Position numbers and translations under genes: made by a program. 33,372 nucleotides of DNA from the IMG/VR virus record IMGVR_UViG_2534681662_000018. The stretch is one strand, 5' to 3'. Shown here in pieces: positions 9,512 to 14,241 of this stretch (its first letter is position 1; each line of letters starts with the position of its first letter). The notes under the pieces are model-generated. The model was not told the origin of the DNA, searched no databases, and was given only the letters and a program-made list of their open reading frames with translations. The DNA is from a virus. Its lineage: Duplodnaviria; Heunggongvirae; Uroviricota; Caudoviricetes.

Positions 9512-9584
9512 AAGTGTCTCCTGTTTCAGTTGATGTTCACAAAGGCCGCGCTAACGCGTGGCCTGTATTATGGAGATACGCAAT

Positions 9585-10134
9585 TATGCGCACATCCCTG
9601 ATTAAATTAATCCATGTCGCCCGTCGGGAGCTACAACTCGACGACGACACCTACCGTGCCTTTCTGATGCAGAACACGGGCAAAATCAGTTGCCGTGAGC
9701 TGACCGTCGCGCAACTGGAGCTGGTGCTCGATGCCATGAAAGAACGCGGTTTTAAGAAGCAGAATAAACACCCACGCCGTCGCTTTAAGGGGCATGTCAC
9801 GCCCCGCGAAAAGGTATTAAAAATCTGGCAGCAAATGACAGAAGACGGTTTTATTGCCGATGGCAGTGATACAGCACTGGATAAATACGTCGAACGACTG
9901 ACAGCCAGACGCAACGGCGGACAGGGTGTTTCCACACTGGCGTGGTGTCATGGCGACACGCTGCTGACAGTCCTCGAAACACTCAAGCAGTGGCACATCC
10001 GCTGTATTCGTGAAGCCTTTTCCCGTCACGGGCTTCCGTTGCCGGTCAGTCCGTCCGGTCGTGAACTGCGCGGCTATGATGCCATGACGGCGGCTTATGC
10101 CCATGCCAGAAAGACACGGAGGATGGCACAATGA
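9585..10134 (+). CDS. gemA: GemA, host gene-expression modulation protein (183 aa)
   Basis: ATG at 9585 preceded by GGAG; track ORF starts at GTG 9514. Assignment by position immediately upstream of mor. Confidence 0.75.
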
Positions 10135-10520
10135 CGGAAGATTTATTTGGTGATTTGCAGGATGACACCATCCTGGCACATCTTGACAATCCCGCCGAGG
10201 ATACGTCACGCTTTCCGGCACTGCTGGCGGAGCTGAACGATTTACTGCGCGGGGAATTGTCCCGGCTGGGTGTTGATCCTGCCCATTCACTGGAGATTGT
10301 TGTGGCTATCTGTAAGCATCTGGGCGGCGGTCAGGTCTACATTCCACGCGGTCAGGTTCTGGACTCGCTGATTCGGGATTTGCGTATCTGGAATGATTTT
10401 AACGGTCGCAACGTCAGCGAACTGACCACCCGTTATGGTGTCACTTTCAATACGGTATACAAAGCCATTCGCCGGATGCGACGGCTGAAATACCGCCAGT
10501 ACCAGCCCTCACTTCTGTAA
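10131..10520 (+). CDS. mor: Mor, middle operon regulator (129 aa)
   Basis: ORF 10131..10520; C-terminal region paralogous to protein C encoded at 11313 (shared FNGRN motif and HTH). Confidence 0.9.
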   Translation: MTEDLFGDLQDDTILAHLDNPAEDTSRFPALLAELNDLLRGELSRLGVDPAHSLEIVVAICKHLGGGQVYIPRGQVLDSLIRDLRIWNDFNGRNVSELTTRYGVTFNTVYKAIRRMRRLKYRQYQPSLL

Positions 10521-10597: not shown

Positions 10598-10816
10598 ATG
10601 GGTAAAGGCTGGAATGCATCCTTTCATCTTGGCAGACGTGAGCGGCTGCGTCAGGAGGGTTTGCACCGTGTCGCCGGTGGGCCACGTCCTGCGCCCCGCG
10701 ACTATACCGGTCATGATGGCACCCACGGCAGTTATTACATGAAAGGCTGGCAGTCAGTTGATATGCCGGAAATTCTTCATCATTGCCTGCTTTACAGGGA
10801 GAAACATTATGTCTGA
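10598..10816 (+). CDS. Middle-operon hypothetical protein (72 aa)
   Basis: ORF 10598..10816, first ORF after Pm. Confidence 0.5.
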   Translation: MGKGWNASFHLGRRERLRQEGLHRVAGGPRPAPRDYTGHDGTHGSYYMKGWQSVDMPEILHHCLLYREKHYV

Positions 10817-11171
10817 GCGTTCTGCTCGTCAGTGGCCTGATTTTTTATCGGTGGTGTTACTGGCGCTGTTATTGTGGATAAGTCTGTTTTGTGGCTGGCG
10901 CGCGCTGATGTTTTGCTGTGCCTCGGTTTTCAGTGTTGCTTTATGTGTTGCCGGTGATTGTCTGGATGCGCTGATAATGAGCTGCCGGGTGCCTGAACAT
11001 TTTGCCCGGTTCGTCTGGCCGCTGACCTGGCTGGGGAGTCTGTCCGGGCTGGGATTAGCCGTGATGGCAACTTCTCAACTGAAAACGGGTCCTGAGCATG
11101 TCATCTGGGCGCTGGCCGGATTGCTGACGTTCTGGCTCTCCTTTCGTTTTCGCGCTCGTCTGTTCGGGTAA
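10809..11171 (+). CDS. Middle-operon predicted integral membrane protein (120 aa)
   Basis: ATG at 10809 preceded by AGGGAG; hydrophobic segments (VVLLALLLWISLFCGW, LGLAVMATS, ALAGLLTFWL). Confidence 0.5.
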   Translation: MSERSARQWPDFLSVVLLALLLWISLFCGWRALMFCCASVFSVALCVAGDCLDALIMSCRVPEHFARFVWPLTWLGSLSGLGLAVMATSQLKTGPEHVIWALAGLLTFWLSFRFRARLFG

Positions 11172-11180
11172 AGGGGCACC

Positions 11181-11300
11181 ATGTACAGAAAATTCAGTGA
11201 TGAATGTTTCGGGCCGTCCACGCTGATTAGTGCGATAAAAGTGATTGCCCTTGTGGTTCTGATAACCATCAGTGCCGTGGTGTATCTTTCTGTCTGTTAA
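11181..11300 (+). CDS. Candidate 39-aa hydrophobic peptide (MYRKFSDECFGPSTLISAIKVIALVVLITISAVVYLSVC)
   Basis: ATG at 11181 after AAAGGGG; one predicted transmembrane helix; below the ORF-track length cutoff; fills the gap before C. Confidence 0.35.
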   Translation: MYRKFSDECFGPSTLISAIKVIALVVLITISAVVYLSVC

Positions 11301-11312
11301 CCGGGGGAAAAT

Positions 11313-11735
11313 ATGCAGCATGATTTATTTGAACACGATCCGGCAATTCGCCAGTTAATCGGACATATTGATAACATCCCGGCCCCGGAACTGGAATCAC
11401 GCTGGCCCCGTTCGGTGGTTGATCTGATTGATGTTCTGGAAAACGAACTGAAACGCCAGAACGTCAGCAATCCCCGTGAGCTTGCCCGTAAACAGGCCGT
11501 TGCCCTGTCCTGTTTTCTGGGTGGGCGGCAGTTTTATATCCCCTGTGGCGATACTATCCTGACCGCGTTACGCGACGATTTGCTTTACTGCCAGTTCAAT
11601 GGTCGTAACATGGAAGAACTGCGTCGCCAGTACCGCCTGTCCCAGCCGCAGATCTACCAGATTATTGCCCGCCAGAGAAAGCTGCATACACGGCGTCATC
11701 AGCCTGATCTGTTCTCACCTGAAAGCCCAAAATAA
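11313..11735 (+). CDS. C: C, late transcription activator (140 aa)
   Basis: ORF 11313..11735; Mor paralogue; MQHDLFEHDPAIRQLIGHIDNIPAPELESRWPRS... Confidence 0.9.
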   Translation: MQHDLFEHDPAIRQLIGHIDNIPAPELESRWPRSVVDLIDVLENELKRQNVSNPRELARKQAVALSCFLGGRQFYIPCGDTILTALRDDLLYCQFNGRNMEELRRQYRLSQPQIYQIIARQRKLHTRRHQPDLFSPESPK

Positions 11736-11736
11736 C

Positions 11737-11762
11737 CGGCATCCTGCCGGTTATTTCCTGTC
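11737..11762 (+). terminator. Rho-independent terminator after C (end of middle transcript)
   Basis: CCGGCA-TCC-TGCCGG hairpin followed by TTATTTCC. Confidence 0.6.
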
Positions 11763-11826
11763 ACCATAATCCCGCACCTGTCACCTGATTTTTTAGACTG
11801 CCATCAGAGCATTTTTTCAGGGAAGC
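11763..11826 (+). promoter_or_regulatory. Late promoter Plys region (C-dependent)
   Basis: Contains CCCGCACCT at 11771-11779, the same 9-mer found at 19355-19363 upstream of I, at similar distance from the start codon. Confidence 0.55.
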
Positions 11827-12345
11827 ATGATGGCGGGGATACCAAAAAAACTGAAAGCCGCACTGCTGGCGGCAACGATTGCCGGTGGTGGTGTGGGTGG
11901 TTATCAGGAAATGACCCGTCAGTCTCTGATCCATCTGGAAAATATCGCTTATATGCCTTACCGCGATATTGCCGGTGTGCTTACGGTCTGTGTGGGACAT
12001 ACCGGACCGGATATCGAAATGCGCCGTTACAGCCATGCGGAGTGTATGGCTCTCCTCGACAGTGATTTAAAACCGGTTTATGCGGCAATCGATCGTCTTG
12101 TCAGGGTGCCGCTGACGCCATATCAGAAAACGGCGCTGGCAACGTTTATTTTCAACACCGGTGTTACCGCATTCAGTAAATCAACGCTGCTGAAAAAACT
12201 CAATGCCGGTGATTACGCCGGAGCGCGTGACCAGATGGCCCGCTGGGTGTTTGCCGCAGGCCATAAATGGAAAGGACTGATGAACCGTCGCGAAGTGGAA
12301 ATGGCAATCTGGAATATCAGGGGGGCGGATGACCTTCGCCAGTAA
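11827..12345 (+). CDS. lys: Endolysin with N-terminal hydrophobic signal-anchor-release-like segment (172 aa)
   Basis: ORF 11827..12345 (alternative ATG 11830); N-terminal KKLKAALLAATIAGGGVGGY followed by lysozyme-like region. Confidence 0.88.
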   Translation: MMAGIPKKLKAALLAATIAGGGVGGYQEMTRQSLIHLENIAYMPYRDIAGVLTVCVGHTGPDIEMRRYSHAECMALLDSDLKPVYAAIDRLVRVPLTPYQKTALATFIFNTGVTAFSKSTLLKKLNAGDYAGARDQMARWVFAAGHKWKGLMNRREVEMAIWNIRGADDLRQ

Positions 12346-12715
12346 AAGTTTACTGCTGGCAGCCGTGTTTACCGCCGTTCTGTCCGGGGTGTTGTGGCAC
12401 AGGCTGGACAGTACCCGCCACGATAACCAGACGCTGCGCCGTGAATTACAGACGGAGCAACAGGCCCGCCACACTGCTGAATGGTTGTTACACGGTCAGG
12501 AACAGACGATGCAGGTATTTTCCGCTATCCGTGCCGCAAATCGTGCCGCACGGCTGGCAGATGAGACAGAACATCATGATGCAAAAGAAAAAATTACAAC
12601 CGCCATTACTGGTGACAATTGCAGCACTCGTCCTGTGCCTGCCGTTGCTGCTGACAGGTTGCGGGAACTCGAAAAACGCACCCGTGCCATCGGTGGTGAT
12701 CCTGCCCGAAACTGA
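12329..12715 (+). CDS. Rz-like inner-membrane spanin (128 aa)
   Basis: N-terminal transmembrane segment SLLLAAVFTAVLSGVLW then charged helical region; overlaps lys 3' end. Confidence 0.7.
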   Translation: MTFASKSLLLAAVFTAVLSGVLWHRLDSTRHDNQTLRRELQTEQQARHTAEWLLHGQEQTMQVFSAIRAANRAARLADETEHHDAKEKITTAITGDNCSTRPVPAVAADRLRELEKRTRAIGGDPARN

Positions 12716-12917
12716 TACAGAACTGACAGAAGCAACGCCCGTTCCGCCCATGCCACAGCCCCTGACGTGGGGAGCATCCCTTCTCTGGAATGCTGACCTG
12801 TTGATGGCGCTCGGGCAGTGCAACCGCGACAAGGCATCAGTCCGGGAACAGGAGATCCGAAGGAAAGAAATTTATGAACGAAGACCAGAACCGGGCGGTG
12901 GCGCTGCTGCTCGCTGA
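12576..12917 (+). CDS. Rz1-like outer-membrane lipoprotein spanin, starting inside the Rz-like gene in another frame (about 113 aa)
   Basis: In-frame ATG at 12576 within track ORF 12441..12917; signal peptide with lipobox LLTGC; Pro-rich mature part. Start and length uncertain. Confidence 0.5.
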   Translation: MMQKKKLQPPLLVTIAALVLCLPLLLTGCGNSKNAPVPSVVILPETDTELTEATPVPPMPQPLTWGASLLWNADLLMALGQCNRDKASVREQEIRRKEIYERRPEPGGGAAAR

Positions 12918-13068
12918 ACTCTGGCAGGGGGATACCCGTGATATTCCCCGCCCGGCGGCGTATGACCCGCCTGTATTGTGTGCCGGTTGCGGTCGTGAGC
13001 TGCGGCCTGATGTGCTGAGACAGCAGCCGATGGCGAACTACTGCCACTGGTGCCGTGGAGCAGAATAA
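12874..13068 (+). CDS. Small lysis-region protein with CxxC...CxxC zinc-ribbon-like motif (64 aa)
   Basis: ORF 12874..13068; CAGCGRELRPDVLRQQPMANYCHWC. Confidence 0.5.
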   Translation: MNEDQNRAVALLLAELWQGDTRDIPRPAAYDPPVLCAGCGRELRPDVLRQQPMANYCHWCRGAE

Positions 13069-13367
13069 TGGATTTGATTTCAGTTTTAGCGTTATGGCCT
13101 TACCTGTTGCCTGTTGTGGCCGGTGGGGCCGTCTGGGCGATGCGTCGTAGTTTTGCCAGCACCGAGCGTGTGGAGCGTCTTGAAAACCGGATGACCGAAA
13201 TGGAAACCCGCTACGCCAGCATCCCTGGCACAGAAGATGTACACGAAATGCGCCTGCGAATTGCAGAGCTGTCCGGCGATATCCGGGTGCTGTCCCAGCG
13301 GGTGCAGTCATTTTCCCATCAACTGGAGCTGCTGCTTGAAAACGCAGTAAACCGGAGTAATTCATGA
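13068..13367 (+). CDS. Single-pass membrane protein of the lysis cassette, releasin-like (99 aa)
   Basis: ATG at 13068 preceded by GGAG; N-terminal transmembrane segment LISVLALWPYLLPVVAGGAVWA then coiled-coil-like region. Confidence 0.6.
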   Translation: MDLISVLALWPYLLPVVAGGAVWAMRRSFASTERVERLENRMTEMETRYASIPGTEDVHEMRLRIAELSGDIRVLSQRVQSFSHQLELLLENAVNRSNS

Positions 13368-13654
13368 TTAACGATATTCTGACCGAAGACCGTCGTCTGG
13401 TCATCCTGCGTTCCCTGATGGACTGCAATAACGAAGCCAATGAGTCCATCCTTCAGGACTGTCTGGATGCATACGGACACAATGTTTCCCGCGATGTGGT
13501 TCGCGGCCAGATTGACTGGCTGGCAGAGCAGCAACTGGTCACAGTGGAAAACCTGCGCGGCTTTTATGTCGTGACGCTGACCTCCCGTGGTCAGGATGTG
13601 GCAGAAGGCCGCGCCCGCGTTGCCGGTGTCAAGCGTCCGCGTCCCCGTGCATGA
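13364..13654 (+). CDS. Late hypothetical protein (96 aa)
   Basis: ORF 13364..13654, overlaps neighbours by 4 nt (translational coupling). Confidence 0.6.
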   Translation: MINDILTEDRRLVILRSLMDCNNEANESILQDCLDAYGHNVSRDVVRGQIDWLAEQQLVTVENLRGFYVVTLTSRGQDVAEGRARVAGVKRPRPRA

Positions 13655-13665
13655 CTGGAGGCGTG

Positions 13666-14241
13666 ATGGACAGGAAAACACGGGGCCGGGCTTCAAAAGT
13701 GGATTTACTGCCGGAAAACGTGCGTAAAACGCTGCATGAAATGCTGCGTGATAAGGCGATCCCACAGGCCCGCATTCTGGAAGAAATTAACGCACTGATT
13801 GAAGACGCTGGCCTGCCGGATGAGATGAAACTCTCCCGTTCCGGTCTGAACCGTTACGCGACGAACGTCGAGCAGGTAGGCCATAACCTGCGACAGATGC
13901 GTGAAATGACGTCAGCACTGACCGCAGAACTTGGCGACAAGCCAATGGGAGAAACCACAAAGCTGATTCTGGAAATGGCCCGCAGCCAGCTTTTTAAGGC
14001 CATGATGCGGCAAATCGAAAACCCGGAATCTGACGTGGATATTGACCTGCTGAAAAATGCCATGCTGGCGGCACAGCGTCTGGAATCCACGGCAATGTCC
14101 AGCCACCGGCGCGAGAAAGAAATCCGCCAGGCATTCGCAGAAGAAGCGGCAAACGCCGTCAGTGAAGAACTGCGCGGGCAGGATGGCATCAGCGAAGAGC
14201 TGGAGCAGCGTATCCGTGATGTGCTGCTGGGTAAGGCATGA
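13666..14241 (+). CDS. Terminase small subunit / DNA-binding packaging protein (191 aa)
   Basis: ATG at 13666 preceded by GGAGG with 5-nt spacing (track ORF from 13651); position directly upstream of the terminase large subunit. Confidence 0.7.
   Translation: MDRKTRGRASKVDLLPENVRKTLHEMLRDKAIPQARILEEINALIEDAGLPDEMKLSRSGLNRYATNVEQVGHNLRQMREMTSALTAELGDKPMGETTKLILEMARSQLFKAMMRQIENPESDVDIDLLKNAMLAAQRLESTAMSSHRREKEIRQAFAEEAANAVSEELRGQDGISEELEQRIRDVLLGKA

What the first reader, a model, noticed from the sequence alone, without database searches (positions are those of the whole stretch)
11827..13367. Holin-less lysis cassette with overlapped spanins, a zinc-ribbon protein and a releasin-like membrane protein
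The endolysin has a signal-anchor-like N-terminus and there is no canonical holin ORF. The lipoprotein spanin (lipobox LLTGC, start 12576) begins inside the inner-membrane spanin gene in another frame and appears to run on to 12917, overlapping the next gene; at about 113 aa it is unusually long for an Rz1-type protein. A 64-aa CxxC zinc-ribbon protein and a single-pass membrane protein follow. The real extent of the lipoprotein and the role of the zinc-ribbon protein are open.
Basis: partly seen in the sequence, partly recalled or inferred. Interest (0 to 1): 0.45.

Follow-up and report, generated by a model that had tools for sequence, protein, structure and literature searches.

The report
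Phage Mu holin-less lysis cassette
This stretch is the already well-studied lysis gene cluster of a phage Mu-type prophage in E. coli (membrane-tethered endolysin, two overlapping spanin genes, gene 24, and the "releasin" gp25), so it is ordinary; the only open item, gene 24, looks like a degenerate TraR/DksA-type zinc-finger protein.

Summary
Window 11827-13367 is 98.8% identical, without indels, to the late lys operon of phage Mu and 99.0% identical to D108. The window is a Mu-type prophage whose left end lies at 1260.

The curated Mu record and Chamblee et al. 2022 (mBio, PMC9239132) already describe every part:
- gp22, SAR endolysin, 11830-12345
- gp23, i-spanin, 12329-12715
- gp23.1, overlapped o-spanin, 12576-12917 (113 aa, lipobox LTGC, Cys29)
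- gp24, 12874-13068
- gp25, releasin, 13068-13367 (ATG start, not the GTG at 13050)
- no holin

The 113-aa lipoprotein is not a frameshift artefact. It has the same length in seven Muvirus genomes and in a relative with 61% identical residues in this protein. It is under purifying selection in its own frame. Its layout copies P2 lysB/lysC, and the published W65 amber mutation lies beyond the gp23 stop.

gp24 is dispensable for endolysin release, because gp22 plus gp25 lyse cells on their own. I add one point. gp24 occupies the slot that genuine TraR/DksA zinc-finger genes hold just upstream of DUF2730 genes in other Mu-like phages (111 of 162 loci). It keeps the CxxC-x17-CxxC finger, but it lacks TraR's C-terminal helix and an intact DxxDxA motif.

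The parts
11753..11819 (+). Late promoter Plys (activated by C), mapped from Mu 10403-10469
   Evidence: Curated Mu record. The window is offset from Mu by +1350 with no indels here. Function is taken from the record's citation and was not tested here.
11830..12345 (+). gp22 (Lys), SAR endolysin, 171 aa
   Evidence: One residue differs from Mu gp22 (V15A); it is identical to D108. Pfam Phage_lysozyme E 1e-37. K6, K7, E37, D46 and T52 are present, and the N-terminal Gly/Ala-rich segment has KD 1.32. SAR behaviour was shown for Mu in PMC9239132.
12329..12715 (+). gp23, i-spanin, 128 aa, N-terminal TMD
   Evidence: Curated Mu record. PHROG 214 'Rz-like spanin' E 1e-34. KD17 2.13 at residues 7-23.
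12576..12917 (+). gp23.1 (Mu_55), o-spanin lipoprotein, 113 aa (mature 85 aa from Cys29). It overlaps gp23 by 140 nt and gene 24 by 44 nt.
   Evidence: Curated Mu record. Pfam LysC 52.7 bits, above the cut-off of 27. Lipobox LTGC; W65 is at 12768-12770, beyond the gp23 stop. It is 113 aa in 7 Muvirus genomes and in L007. pN/pS is 0.30 in its own frame and 1.29/2.01 in the others. The W65am spherical-cell phenotype is reported in PMC9239132.
12874..13068 (+). gp24, 64 aa, soluble C4 zinc-finger protein (C36, C39, C57, C60). Probably a diverged TraR/DksA-type protein. Not required for endolysin release.
   Evidence: Identical to Mu gp24. PHROG 3260, function unknown. It is a narrow family. The top 10 Foldseek hits are all TraR/DksA/YbiI. 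hhalign against syntenic TraR-like proteins gives probability 79-85%. It sits in a syntenic slot. pN/pS is 0.50.
13068..13367 (+). gp25, releasin (DUF2730), 99 aa, N-terminal TMD with a cytoplasmic coiled-coil domain
   Evidence: 100% identical to Mu gp25. Pfam DUF2730 50.4 bits, above the cut-off of 24.9. KD17 1.95 at residues 3-19. Function was shown for Mu in PMC9239132.
13364..13654 (+). gp26, winged-helix protein. It is the adjacent gene in the same operon and is not known to act in lysis.
   Evidence: Curated Mu record. NCBIfam VpaChn25_0724 family E 4.9e-38.
10809..11171 (+). gp19, a 4-TMD middle-operon protein. It was formerly proposed as the holin and was shown not to be one.
   Evidence: Mapped from Mu 9459-9821. 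ORF listed. There was no lethality on DNP triggering in PMC9239132.
11181..11300 (+). gp20, a 1-TMD middle-operon protein. It was formerly proposed as the antiholin and was shown not to behave as a holin.
   Evidence: Mapped from Mu 9831-9950. ORF listed. Experimental result in PMC9239132.

Best explanation
This is the lysis module of the late lys operon of a phage Mu-type prophage, and it works as published for Mu.

1. The late activator C turns on Plys.
2. gp22 is exported by the Sec system and stays tethered to the inner membrane by its weakly hydrophobic N-terminal SAR domain. Lys6 and Lys7 on the cytoplasmic side hold it there.
3. gp25, a membrane-anchored cytoplasmic DUF2730 protein (the 'releasin'), promotes release of gp22 into the periplasm. 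There gp22 refolds and degrades the peptidoglycan.
4. The spanin complex then disrupts the outer membrane. It consists of gp23 (inner-membrane subunit) and gp23.1 (outer-membrane lipoprotein, encoded in another frame, starting inside gene 23 and ending inside gene 24).
5. No holin is involved.

Steps 1-5 were shown experimentally for Mu. They are inferred here from near-identity: gp24 and gp25 are identical to Mu's, and gp22, gp23 and gp23.1 each differ by one residue.

gp24 is a genuine, moderately constrained protein-coding gene but is not part of the release mechanism. Most likely it is a diverged descendant of the TraR/DksA-type zinc-finger gene that precedes the DUF2730 gene in other transposable phages. 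Its activity is unknown.
For: - Identity: 98.8% to Mu and 99.0% to D108 over 2001 nt with no gaps. The whole window is colinear with Mu from nt 1 at window 1260.
- Annotation: the curated Mu record lists SAR endolysin, i-spanin, o-spanin (342 nt) and releasin at the corresponding positions.
- Experiments in PMC9239132: genes 19, 20 and 25 are not holins, and DNP delays rather than triggers Mu lysis. A 23.1 W65 amber mutant gives spherical cells that lambda RzRz1 rescues. Deleting gene 25 abolishes timely lysis, while gp22 + gp25 alone lyse cells. The K6/K7 dependence is stated in the abstract.
- Sequence checks here: catalytic triad, K6/K7, lipobox, TMDs; Pfam and PHROG assignments.
- The o-spanin is 113 aa in 7 Muvirus genomes and in the diverged relative L007, with purifying selection in its own frame. 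Its C-terminal tail IYERRPxxG..AA is kept in Salmonella, Apirhabdus and Tenebrionicola homologues.
- gp24.
Against: - Nothing in the window contradicts the published model.
- Caveat: no experiment was done on this particular prophage. The few substitutions (gp22 V15A in the SAR domain, gp23 G21V, gp23.1 I46T relative to Mu) are shared with D108 but are untested.
- The molecular mechanism of the releasin is itself unresolved in the literature; three models are listed.
- The exact C-terminus of mature gp23.1 has not been shown by protein chemistry.
Confidence: 0.95

Rival explanations
1. The long lipoprotein ORF is an artefact. Under this view a frameshift or sequencing error in this isolate fuses a short Rz1-like ORF to downstream out-of-frame sequence, and the real o-spanin ends near the gp23 stop.
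For: The last ~20 residues also lie outside the Pfam LysC model match (residues 24-92).
Against: - There are no indels against Mu or D108.
- The length is 113 aa in seven independently sequenced Muvirus genomes and in L007, whose o-spanin shares 61% of its residues.
- pN/pS is 0.30 in the o-spanin frame for the part between the gp23 stop and the gene 24 start, against 1.29 and 2.01 in the other frames.
- The tail motif is conserved in homologues from other genera.
- The published W65 amber, 53 nt downstream of the gp23 stop, gives a spanin-null phenotype.
- P2 lysC has the same layout.
Confidence: 0.02
2. gp24 is a lysis component, for example a cytoplasmic partner or regulator of the releasin. 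This would correspond to the 'unknown partner' of model ii in PMC9239132, or to a factor that times lysis.
For: - Gene 24 lies between the spanin and releasin genes and is translationally coupled to gene 25 (TAATG overlap).
- A zinc-finger gene sits immediately upstream of the DUF2730 gene in 111 of 162 related loci, so the pair is conserved.
Against: - gp22 + gp25 expressed alone cause lysis.
- gp24 has no TMD (max KD 0.52).
- The syntenic proteins are ordinary TraR/DksA zinc-finger proteins. The known activity of that family is on RNA polymerase.
- The Pasteurellaceae group mostly lacks the zinc-finger gene yet keeps DUF2730 (7 of 57 loci).
Confidence: 0.1
3. gp24 is a working TraR-like factor. 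Under this view it binds the secondary channel of host RNA polymerase late in infection and reprograms host transcription, as shown for TraR and lambda Orf73.
For: - CxxC-x17-CxxC at almost the same positions as in TraR (36/39/57/60 against 37/40/58/61).
- The ten best Foldseek hits out of 350,542 PDB chains are all TraR, DksA, DksA2 or YbiI. For the DksA-type hits the zinc finger superposes at 0.6-1.0 A over 29-30 aligned columns.
- hhalign probability 44-59% against TraR sets and 79-85% against syntenic TraR-like proteins.
- NCBIfam DksA_like E 0.019 and PDB 2kq9 DksA E 0.12 are the best, though weak, sequence hits.
- It sits at the position held by genuine zf-dskA_traR genes.
- An acidic N-terminal helix, with E3 and D4 invariant in the family.
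- A third-party annotation reads 'TraR/YbiI family'.
Against: - No Pfam PF01258 hit even at E <= 10.
- TraR tblastn finds 276 phage records, but no Muvirus is among the 30 rows listed (a spread of the ranking).
- An HMM of 73 syntenic TraR-like proteins gives gp24 only 9.2 bits (E 0.037 among 444 window ORFs).
- The three functional elements defined for TraR are mostly missing. The DxxDxA motif is not intact (E3-D4-Q5-N6-R7-A8). The IPEARR segment is LRPDVL. The C-terminal helix that contacts beta-Si1 is absent, with only 4 residues after the last Cys.
Confidence: 0.25
4. The cassette does have a holin: the upstream membrane proteins gp19 (4 TMD) and gp20 (1 TMD) act as a holin-antiholin pair.
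For: Both ORFs are present in the window (10809-11171 and 11181-11300). According to PMC9239132, this was proposed earlier on topological grounds.
Against: - They are middle-operon genes, not late genes.
- Earlier genetics showed that both can be inactivated without a lysis defect.
- Neither protein, alone or together, is lethal upon DNP triggering, unlike S105 and S68.
- DNP delays rather than triggers Mu lysis (all).
Confidence: 0.03

Closest known systems
Phage Mu / D108 lys operon (gp22, gp23, gp23.1, gp24, gp25), GenBank AF083977 and GQ357916; Chamblee et al. 2022, mBio 13:e00813-22
   Same: Same genes in the same order, with the same overlaps. Nucleotide identity is 98.8-99.0% without indels. 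gp24 and gp25 are identical, and gp22, gp23 and gp23.1 each differ by one residue from Mu.
   Different: Only point substitutions: gp22 V15A, gp23 G21V and gp23.1 I46T relative to Mu, all shared with D108. Elsewhere the prophage has mosaic replacements in the early region, but none in this cassette.
Phage P2 lysB/lysC spanins (overlapped architecture; Pfam LysC PF23793)
   Same: The o-spanin gene starts inside the i-spanin gene in another frame, runs past its stop, and overlaps the next gene: 38 nt into R in P2 and 44 nt into gene 24 here. Both fall in the Pfam LysC family.
   Different: Pairwise sequence similarity is marginal (BLASTP E 0.005 over the signal peptide only). P2 uses a holin (Y) and a soluble endolysin (K), and it has no releasin.
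SAR endolysin plus pinholin systems (phage 21 R21/S68; P1 Lyz)
   Same: An endolysin exported by Sec and tethered by a weakly hydrophobic N-terminal SAR domain (statement from PMC9239132).
   Different: In those systems release is triggered when a pinholin or holin depolarises the membrane. Here there is no holin, and release depends on the DUF2730 releasin and on K6/K7 of gp22.
TraR / lambda Orf73 / P2 Orf82 family (Pfam zf-dskA_traR PF01258)
   Same: gp24 is a small protein (64 aa against 73) with an N-terminal helix followed by a CxxC-x17-CxxC zinc finger in the same register. It also holds the gene slot occupied by genuine family members in other Mu-like phages.
   Different: There is no significant sequence match to PF01258. 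The DxxDxA motif is not intact, the IPEARR segment is not conserved, and the C-terminal helix is missing.

Membership tests
SAR endolysin (Mu gp22 type) | Lysozyme-family catalytic domain with the Glu-Asp-Thr triad | tested here: met
   Pfam PF00959 at 129.7 bits against a cut-off of 22.3. E37, D46 and T52 are present.
SAR endolysin (Mu gp22 type) | Weakly hydrophobic, Gly/Ala-rich N-terminal signal-anchor-release domain preceded by K6/K7 | tested here: met
   Residues 8-24 are LKAALLAATIAGGGVGG with KD17 1.32, and K6, K7 and K9 are present. One substitution (V15A) relative to Mu, shared with D108.
SAR endolysin (Mu gp22 type) | Membrane tethering followed by release into the periplasm | not testable with these tools
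   Shown for Mu gp22 in PMC9239132. Inferred here from 99% identity.
Two-component spanin, overlapped architecture | [quoted passage not shown] | tested here: met
   KD17 2.13 at residues 7-23. PHROG 214 'Rz-like spanin' E 1e-34.
Two-component spanin, overlapped architecture | o-spanin with a lipoprotein signal and lipobox Cys, in another frame, starting inside the i-spanin gene and extending beyond it | tested here: met
   LTGC with Cys29. Frames 0 and 2. The ORF spans 12576-12917 while the gp23 stop is at 12715. Pfam LysC 52.7 bits against 27.
Two-component spanin, overlapped architecture | Loss of function gives spherical, non-lysing cells | not testable with these tools
   Reported for Mu 23.1 W65am, and rescued by lambda RzRz1.
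Releasin (DUF2730, Mu gp25 type I) | [quoted passage not shown] | tested here: met
   Pfam PF10805 at 50.4 bits against 24.9. KD17 1.95 at residues 3-19, followed by MRR. 100% identical to Mu gp25. It is the fourth gene after gene 22.
Releasin (DUF2730, Mu gp25 type I) | Required for release of the SAR endolysin | not testable with these tools
   Shown for Mu.
Holin | A late-expressed small membrane protein in the cassette whose lethal hole formation can be triggered by depolarisation | tested here: not met
   The only TMD- or signal-bearing products between Plys and gene 26 are gp22, gp23, gp23.1 and gp25. gp19, gp20 and gp25 are not DNP-triggerable in Mu.
TraR/DksA family (for gp24) | C4 zinc finger, CxxC-x17-CxxC | tested here: met
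   C36, C39, C57 and C60, in register with TraR C37/40/58/61.
TraR/DksA family (for gp24) | Significant match to the family profile (Pfam PF01258) | tested here: not met
   No PF01258 hit at E <= 10 for gp24 or its three relatives. NCBIfam DksA_like scores 15.3 bits against a cut-off of 105. hhalign probability is 44-85% and covers the finger only.
TraR/DksA family (for gp24) | N-terminal helix carrying the DxxDxA motif | tested here: not met
   The N-terminus is M-N-E-D-Q-N-R-A. Depending on the alignment, either the second Asp is Asn or the spacing is shortened. A helix at residues 3-16 is predicted.
TraR/DksA family (for gp24) | C-terminal helix after the zinc finger (contacts beta-Si1 in TraR) | tested here: not met
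   Only 4 residues follow the last Cys, against 12 in TraR.
TraR/DksA family (for gp24) | Fold similarity to solved family members | tested here: inconclusive
TraR/DksA family (for gp24) | Binding to the RNA polymerase secondary channel | not testable with these tools
   No experiment is available, and gene 24 is not mentioned in PMC9239132 or PMC9239242.

The most novel reading that the evidence does not exclude
In transposable (Mu-like) phages, a TraR-type zinc-finger gene and the DUF2730 gene form a conserved, translationally coupled pair, placed between the lysis genes and the gp26/terminase genes. Mu gp24 would be a stripped-down member of that pair. It would still act with or alongside gp25, either as a late RNA-polymerase-directed host shut-off factor or as the unidentified cytoplasmic partner of the releasin. 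If so, DUF2730 proteins in phages with soluble endolysins, whose role is unexplained, might have an ancestral function tied to this partner rather than to endolysin release.
Probability: 0.15. Interest if true: 0.5.

Novelty: already known. Interest (0 to 1): 0.12.

Why it matters
It matters little for the cassette itself, which is the textbook example of holin-less lysis by a SAR endolysin and a releasin, published in 2022.

The useful results are these:
1. The scan correctly recognised a real and unusual system from raw sequence.
2. The worry about a frameshifted lipoprotein can be closed.
3. Gene 24 is the only uncharacterised gene inside the cluster. It is probably a degenerate TraR/DksA-type protein occupying a slot that is conserved next to DUF2730 genes in many Mu-like phages. 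This gives a concrete, cheap hypothesis to test: RNA polymerase binding, or partnership with gp25.

Tried and rejected
- Frameshift or sequencing error in the o-spanin: rejected.
- Direct family assignment of gp24. Pfam gave only sub-threshold NinF and DUF7575 hits. PHROG 3260 has no function. NCBIfam hits were all far below their cut-offs.
- Homologue collection for gp24. The word-indexed search found 5 proteins. The exhaustive HMMER search of 1.84 billion representatives found only three full-length relatives (P0001, P0003, P0017) plus N-terminal fragments and low-complexity noise. tblastn against phages found only Muvirus. So the family is very narrow.
- PDB sequence search with the gp24 profile: the best hit was DksA 2kq9 at E 0.12, not significant.
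- TraR tblastn against phages: 276 records, with no Muvirus among the 30 rows listed.
- An HMM of 73 syntenic TraR-like proteins against all 444 window ORFs: gp24 ranked first but scored only 9.2 bits.
- The search for related loci with a six-sequence DUF2730 alignment failed because no stretch was conserved enough. It was replaced by four single-protein scans, which sample only four lineages, so the 111/162 count is not lineage-independent.
- Pairwise BLASTP of the Mu spanins against P2 LysB/LysC: essentially no similarity. The relationship rests on the Pfam LysC profile and on gene layout.
Full report
**What the window is.** A megablast of window 11700-13700 against phage genomes finds Escherichia phage D108 at 99.0% and phage Mu at 98.8% identity over all 2001 bases. 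Thirteen further records match at 95-99%: a partial Mu record, other Mu isolates, SfMu, and Mu-like phages propagated on Yersinia pestis. A three-way alignment with Mu and D108 has 2001 columns and no gap. The first 25 kb of the window align with Mu starting at Mu nucleotide 1, which corresponds to window position 1260. A full comparison shows colinearity up to Mu nt 31979 at the window's end, with three replaced blocks in the early region. Positions 1-1259 are E. coli chromosome, inside an inverse-autotransporter/LysM gene. So the window is a Mu-type prophage in E. coli, and the finding lies in its late lys operon.

**Checking the observation.** The current curated GenBank record of Mu (AF083977) maps onto the window with a constant offset of +1350:
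- SAR endolysin gp22, 11830-12345
- i-spanin gp23, 12329-12715
- o-spanin Mu_55 (gp23.1), 12576-12917
- gp24, annotated hypothetical, 12874-13068
- releasin gp25, 13068-13367
- winged-helix gp26, 13364-13654
- the C-dependent late promoter, just upstream at 11753-11819

Family scans agree with this map. The matches are Phage_lysozyme (E 1e-37), Pfam LysC for the lipoprotein (52.7 bits against a cut-off of 27), DUF2730 for the membrane protein (50.4 against 24.9), and 'Rz-like spanin' PHROGs for both spanins. Direct inspection shows K6, K7 and the E37/D46/T52 triad in gp22. Its N-terminal segment is weakly hydrophobic and glycine-rich (KD 1.32). The lipobox LTGC places Cys at residue 29. gp23 and gp25 each have an N-terminal transmembrane segment, and gp24 has none.

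Two coordinates need correcting. The endolysin start that matches the published residue numbering is the second ATG (11830). The membrane protein starts at the ATG at 13068, which overlaps the gene 24 stop as TAATG, rather than at the upstream GTG at 13050.

**What is already known.** Chamblee et al. 2022 (PMC9239132) studied exactly these genes. The paper reports several results:
- gp22 is a SAR endolysin.
- An unannotated overlapping CDS, 23.1, encodes the outer-membrane lipoprotein partner of gp23. Amber mutants give the spherical-cell spanin phenotype, which lambda RzRz1 rescues.
- None of the membrane proteins gp19, gp20 or gp25 behaves as a holin on dinitrophenol triggering, and DNP delays rather than triggers Mu lysis.
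- Deleting gene 25 abolishes timely lysis. gp22 and gp25 expressed alone are sufficient for lysis when spanins are not needed. gp25 was therefore named the releasin.
- Dependence on gp25 is conferred by K6 and K7 of gp22.

How the releasin works is still open; three models are discussed.

**The extent of the lipoprotein.** It is not, for six reasons.
1. There is no indel against Mu or D108.
2. The ORF is 113 codons long in all seven Muvirus genomes examined.
3. In a more distant relative recovered through a gp24 homologue (locus L007; gp22 79%, gp23 50% and gp25 64% identical), the lipoprotein ORF is again exactly 113 codons and again overlaps gene 24 by 44 nt.
4. In the 52 codons lying between the gp23 stop and the gene 24 start, pN/pS between the window and L007 is 0.30 in the lipoprotein frame. 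It is 1.29 and 2.01 in the other two frames.
5. Homologues from Salmonella, Apirhabdus and Tenebrionicola keep the tail motif IY(E/G)RRPxxG…A.
6. The amber mutation used in the paper is at W65. In the window that codon is 12768-12770, 53 nt past the gp23 stop. Translation beyond the gp23 stop is therefore functionally required.

The length is also not unusual for its family. Full-length relatives are 84-116 aa. P2 lysC is 96 aa; it starts inside lysB and overlaps the following gene R by 38 nt, which is the same layout. The exact mature C-terminus has still not been shown by protein chemistry.

**Gene 24.** This is the only part not covered by the literature found. The lysis paper never mentions gene 24. 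However, its reconstitution with gp22 + gp25 alone shows that gp24 is not needed for endolysin release.

gp24 is a real gene. Against L007, pN/pS is 0.50 in its own frame and 1.24 and 1.53 in the other two. Its family is extremely narrow. There were five hits in the word-indexed search. Only three full-length relatives turned up among 1.84 billion representative proteins. In the phage collection, only Muvirus matched.

Its cysteines (36, 39, 57, 60) have the CxxC-x17-CxxC spacing of the DksA/TraR zinc finger, at almost the same positions as in the 73-aa TraR (37, 40, 58, 61). Sequence-level evidence is weak but always points the same way:
- NCBIfam DksA_like, E 0.019
- best PDB sequence hit DksA 2kq9, E 0.12
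- hhalign against TraR sets, probability 43-59%

The strongest argument comes from gene position. In Pseudoalteromonas phage HS6, the ORF immediately upstream of the DUF2730 gene is a 73-76-aa protein that passes Pfam's zf-dskA_traR threshold. The same holds for a Mu-like element inserted in an Stx1 phage and for Klebsiella phage Kp4866-3; the three scores are 27.7, 45.9 and 48.6 bits against a cut-off of 24.9. I then took IMG/VR loci recovered with four DUF2730 queries. In 111 of the 162 loci with enough upstream sequence, an ORF with such a finger ends at the DUF2730 start. By lineage the counts are 29/30, 44/44, 31/31 and 7/57. These ORFs give 83 distinct proteins, most with the TraR hallmarks. 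A profile-profile comparison of the gp24 family with 73 of these proteins gives probability 85% (E 6e-6), but only over the finger. A plain HMM of them ranks the gp24 ORF first among 444 window ORFs with only 9.2 bits.

Set against the three functional elements defined for TraR (PMC9239242), gp24 keeps the finger but has lost much else. It lacks an intact DxxDxA motif (its N-terminus reads NEDQNRA). It lacks the IPEARR segment (LRPDVL in gp24). It also lacks the C-terminal helix entirely.

My reading is that gp24 is homologous to the TraR-type gene of other transposable phages (about 75% likely). Whether it still binds RNA polymerase is doubtful (about 25%). A role as a partner of gp25 is possible but unsupported (about 10%).

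**Verdict.** The residual interest lies in gene 24 and in the conserved pairing of a TraR-type gene with DUF2730 genes in Mu-like phages, which neither of the two papers read here mentions.

Noticed in passing
L017 2278-2499; L018 ~2269-2496; L020 2209-2439; loci L021-L192: In Mu-like phages and prophages, a genuine TraR/DksA zinc-finger gene sits immediately upstream of the DUF2730 (releasin-family) gene and often overlaps it. This holds in 111 of 162 IMG/VR loci from four seed lineages. It is nearly universal in three lineages (29/30, 44/44, 31/31) and rare in the Pasteurellaceae one (7/57). The Mu lysis paper does not mention this pairing.
   Followed up: partly
window 1-1259 and 1260: The left end of the Mu-type prophage is at window 1260. 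The flanking 1259 bases match an E. coli chromosomal inverse-autotransporter / LysM-domain gene at 99.8% identity in many strains, so the prophage appears to have inserted into that gene.
   Followed up: partly
window 5799-6400, 8301-8837, 9201-9588: Three blocks of the semi-essential early region are replaced relative to Mu. They encode PHROG families that are mostly of unknown function: a 'host nuclease inhibitor'-like protein (phrog_1518), phrog_2230, a 252-aa protein with a Cys-rich C-terminus (phrog_6418), and phrog_6075.
   Followed up: partly
window 9272-9511 (- strand): A 79-aa ORF lies on the opposite strand to the whole early operon, inside one of the replaced blocks. It matches phrog_32893 (E 7e-46, unknown function). 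An oppositely oriented gene here could be an inserted accessory gene (a 'moron').
   Followed up: no
L012 201-422 (Mannheimia phage vB_MhM_535AP1): In this P2-like phage, a TraR/DksA zinc-finger gene lies in the late region directly before tail completion gene R. In P2 itself, that is the position just after lysB/lysC. This is a second case of a TraR-type gene placed at the end of a lysis cluster.
   Followed up: no
window 33372 (end): The window ends at Mu nt 31979, 13 nt inside the invertible G segment (boundary at Mu 31966). The tail-fibre variable part, gin, com/mom and the right end are therefore not in the window, and the target-site duplication cannot be checked.
   Followed up: no
L018 2203-2496 and relatives: In the E. 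coli Mu-like lineage, the TraR-like ORF can be read with a 22-residue N-terminal extension (MNLLIWPERLLFRQERRSKEKG…) that is conserved across relatives. This extension may instead belong to an overlapping upstream (spanin?) frame. The true start was not determined.
   Followed up: no
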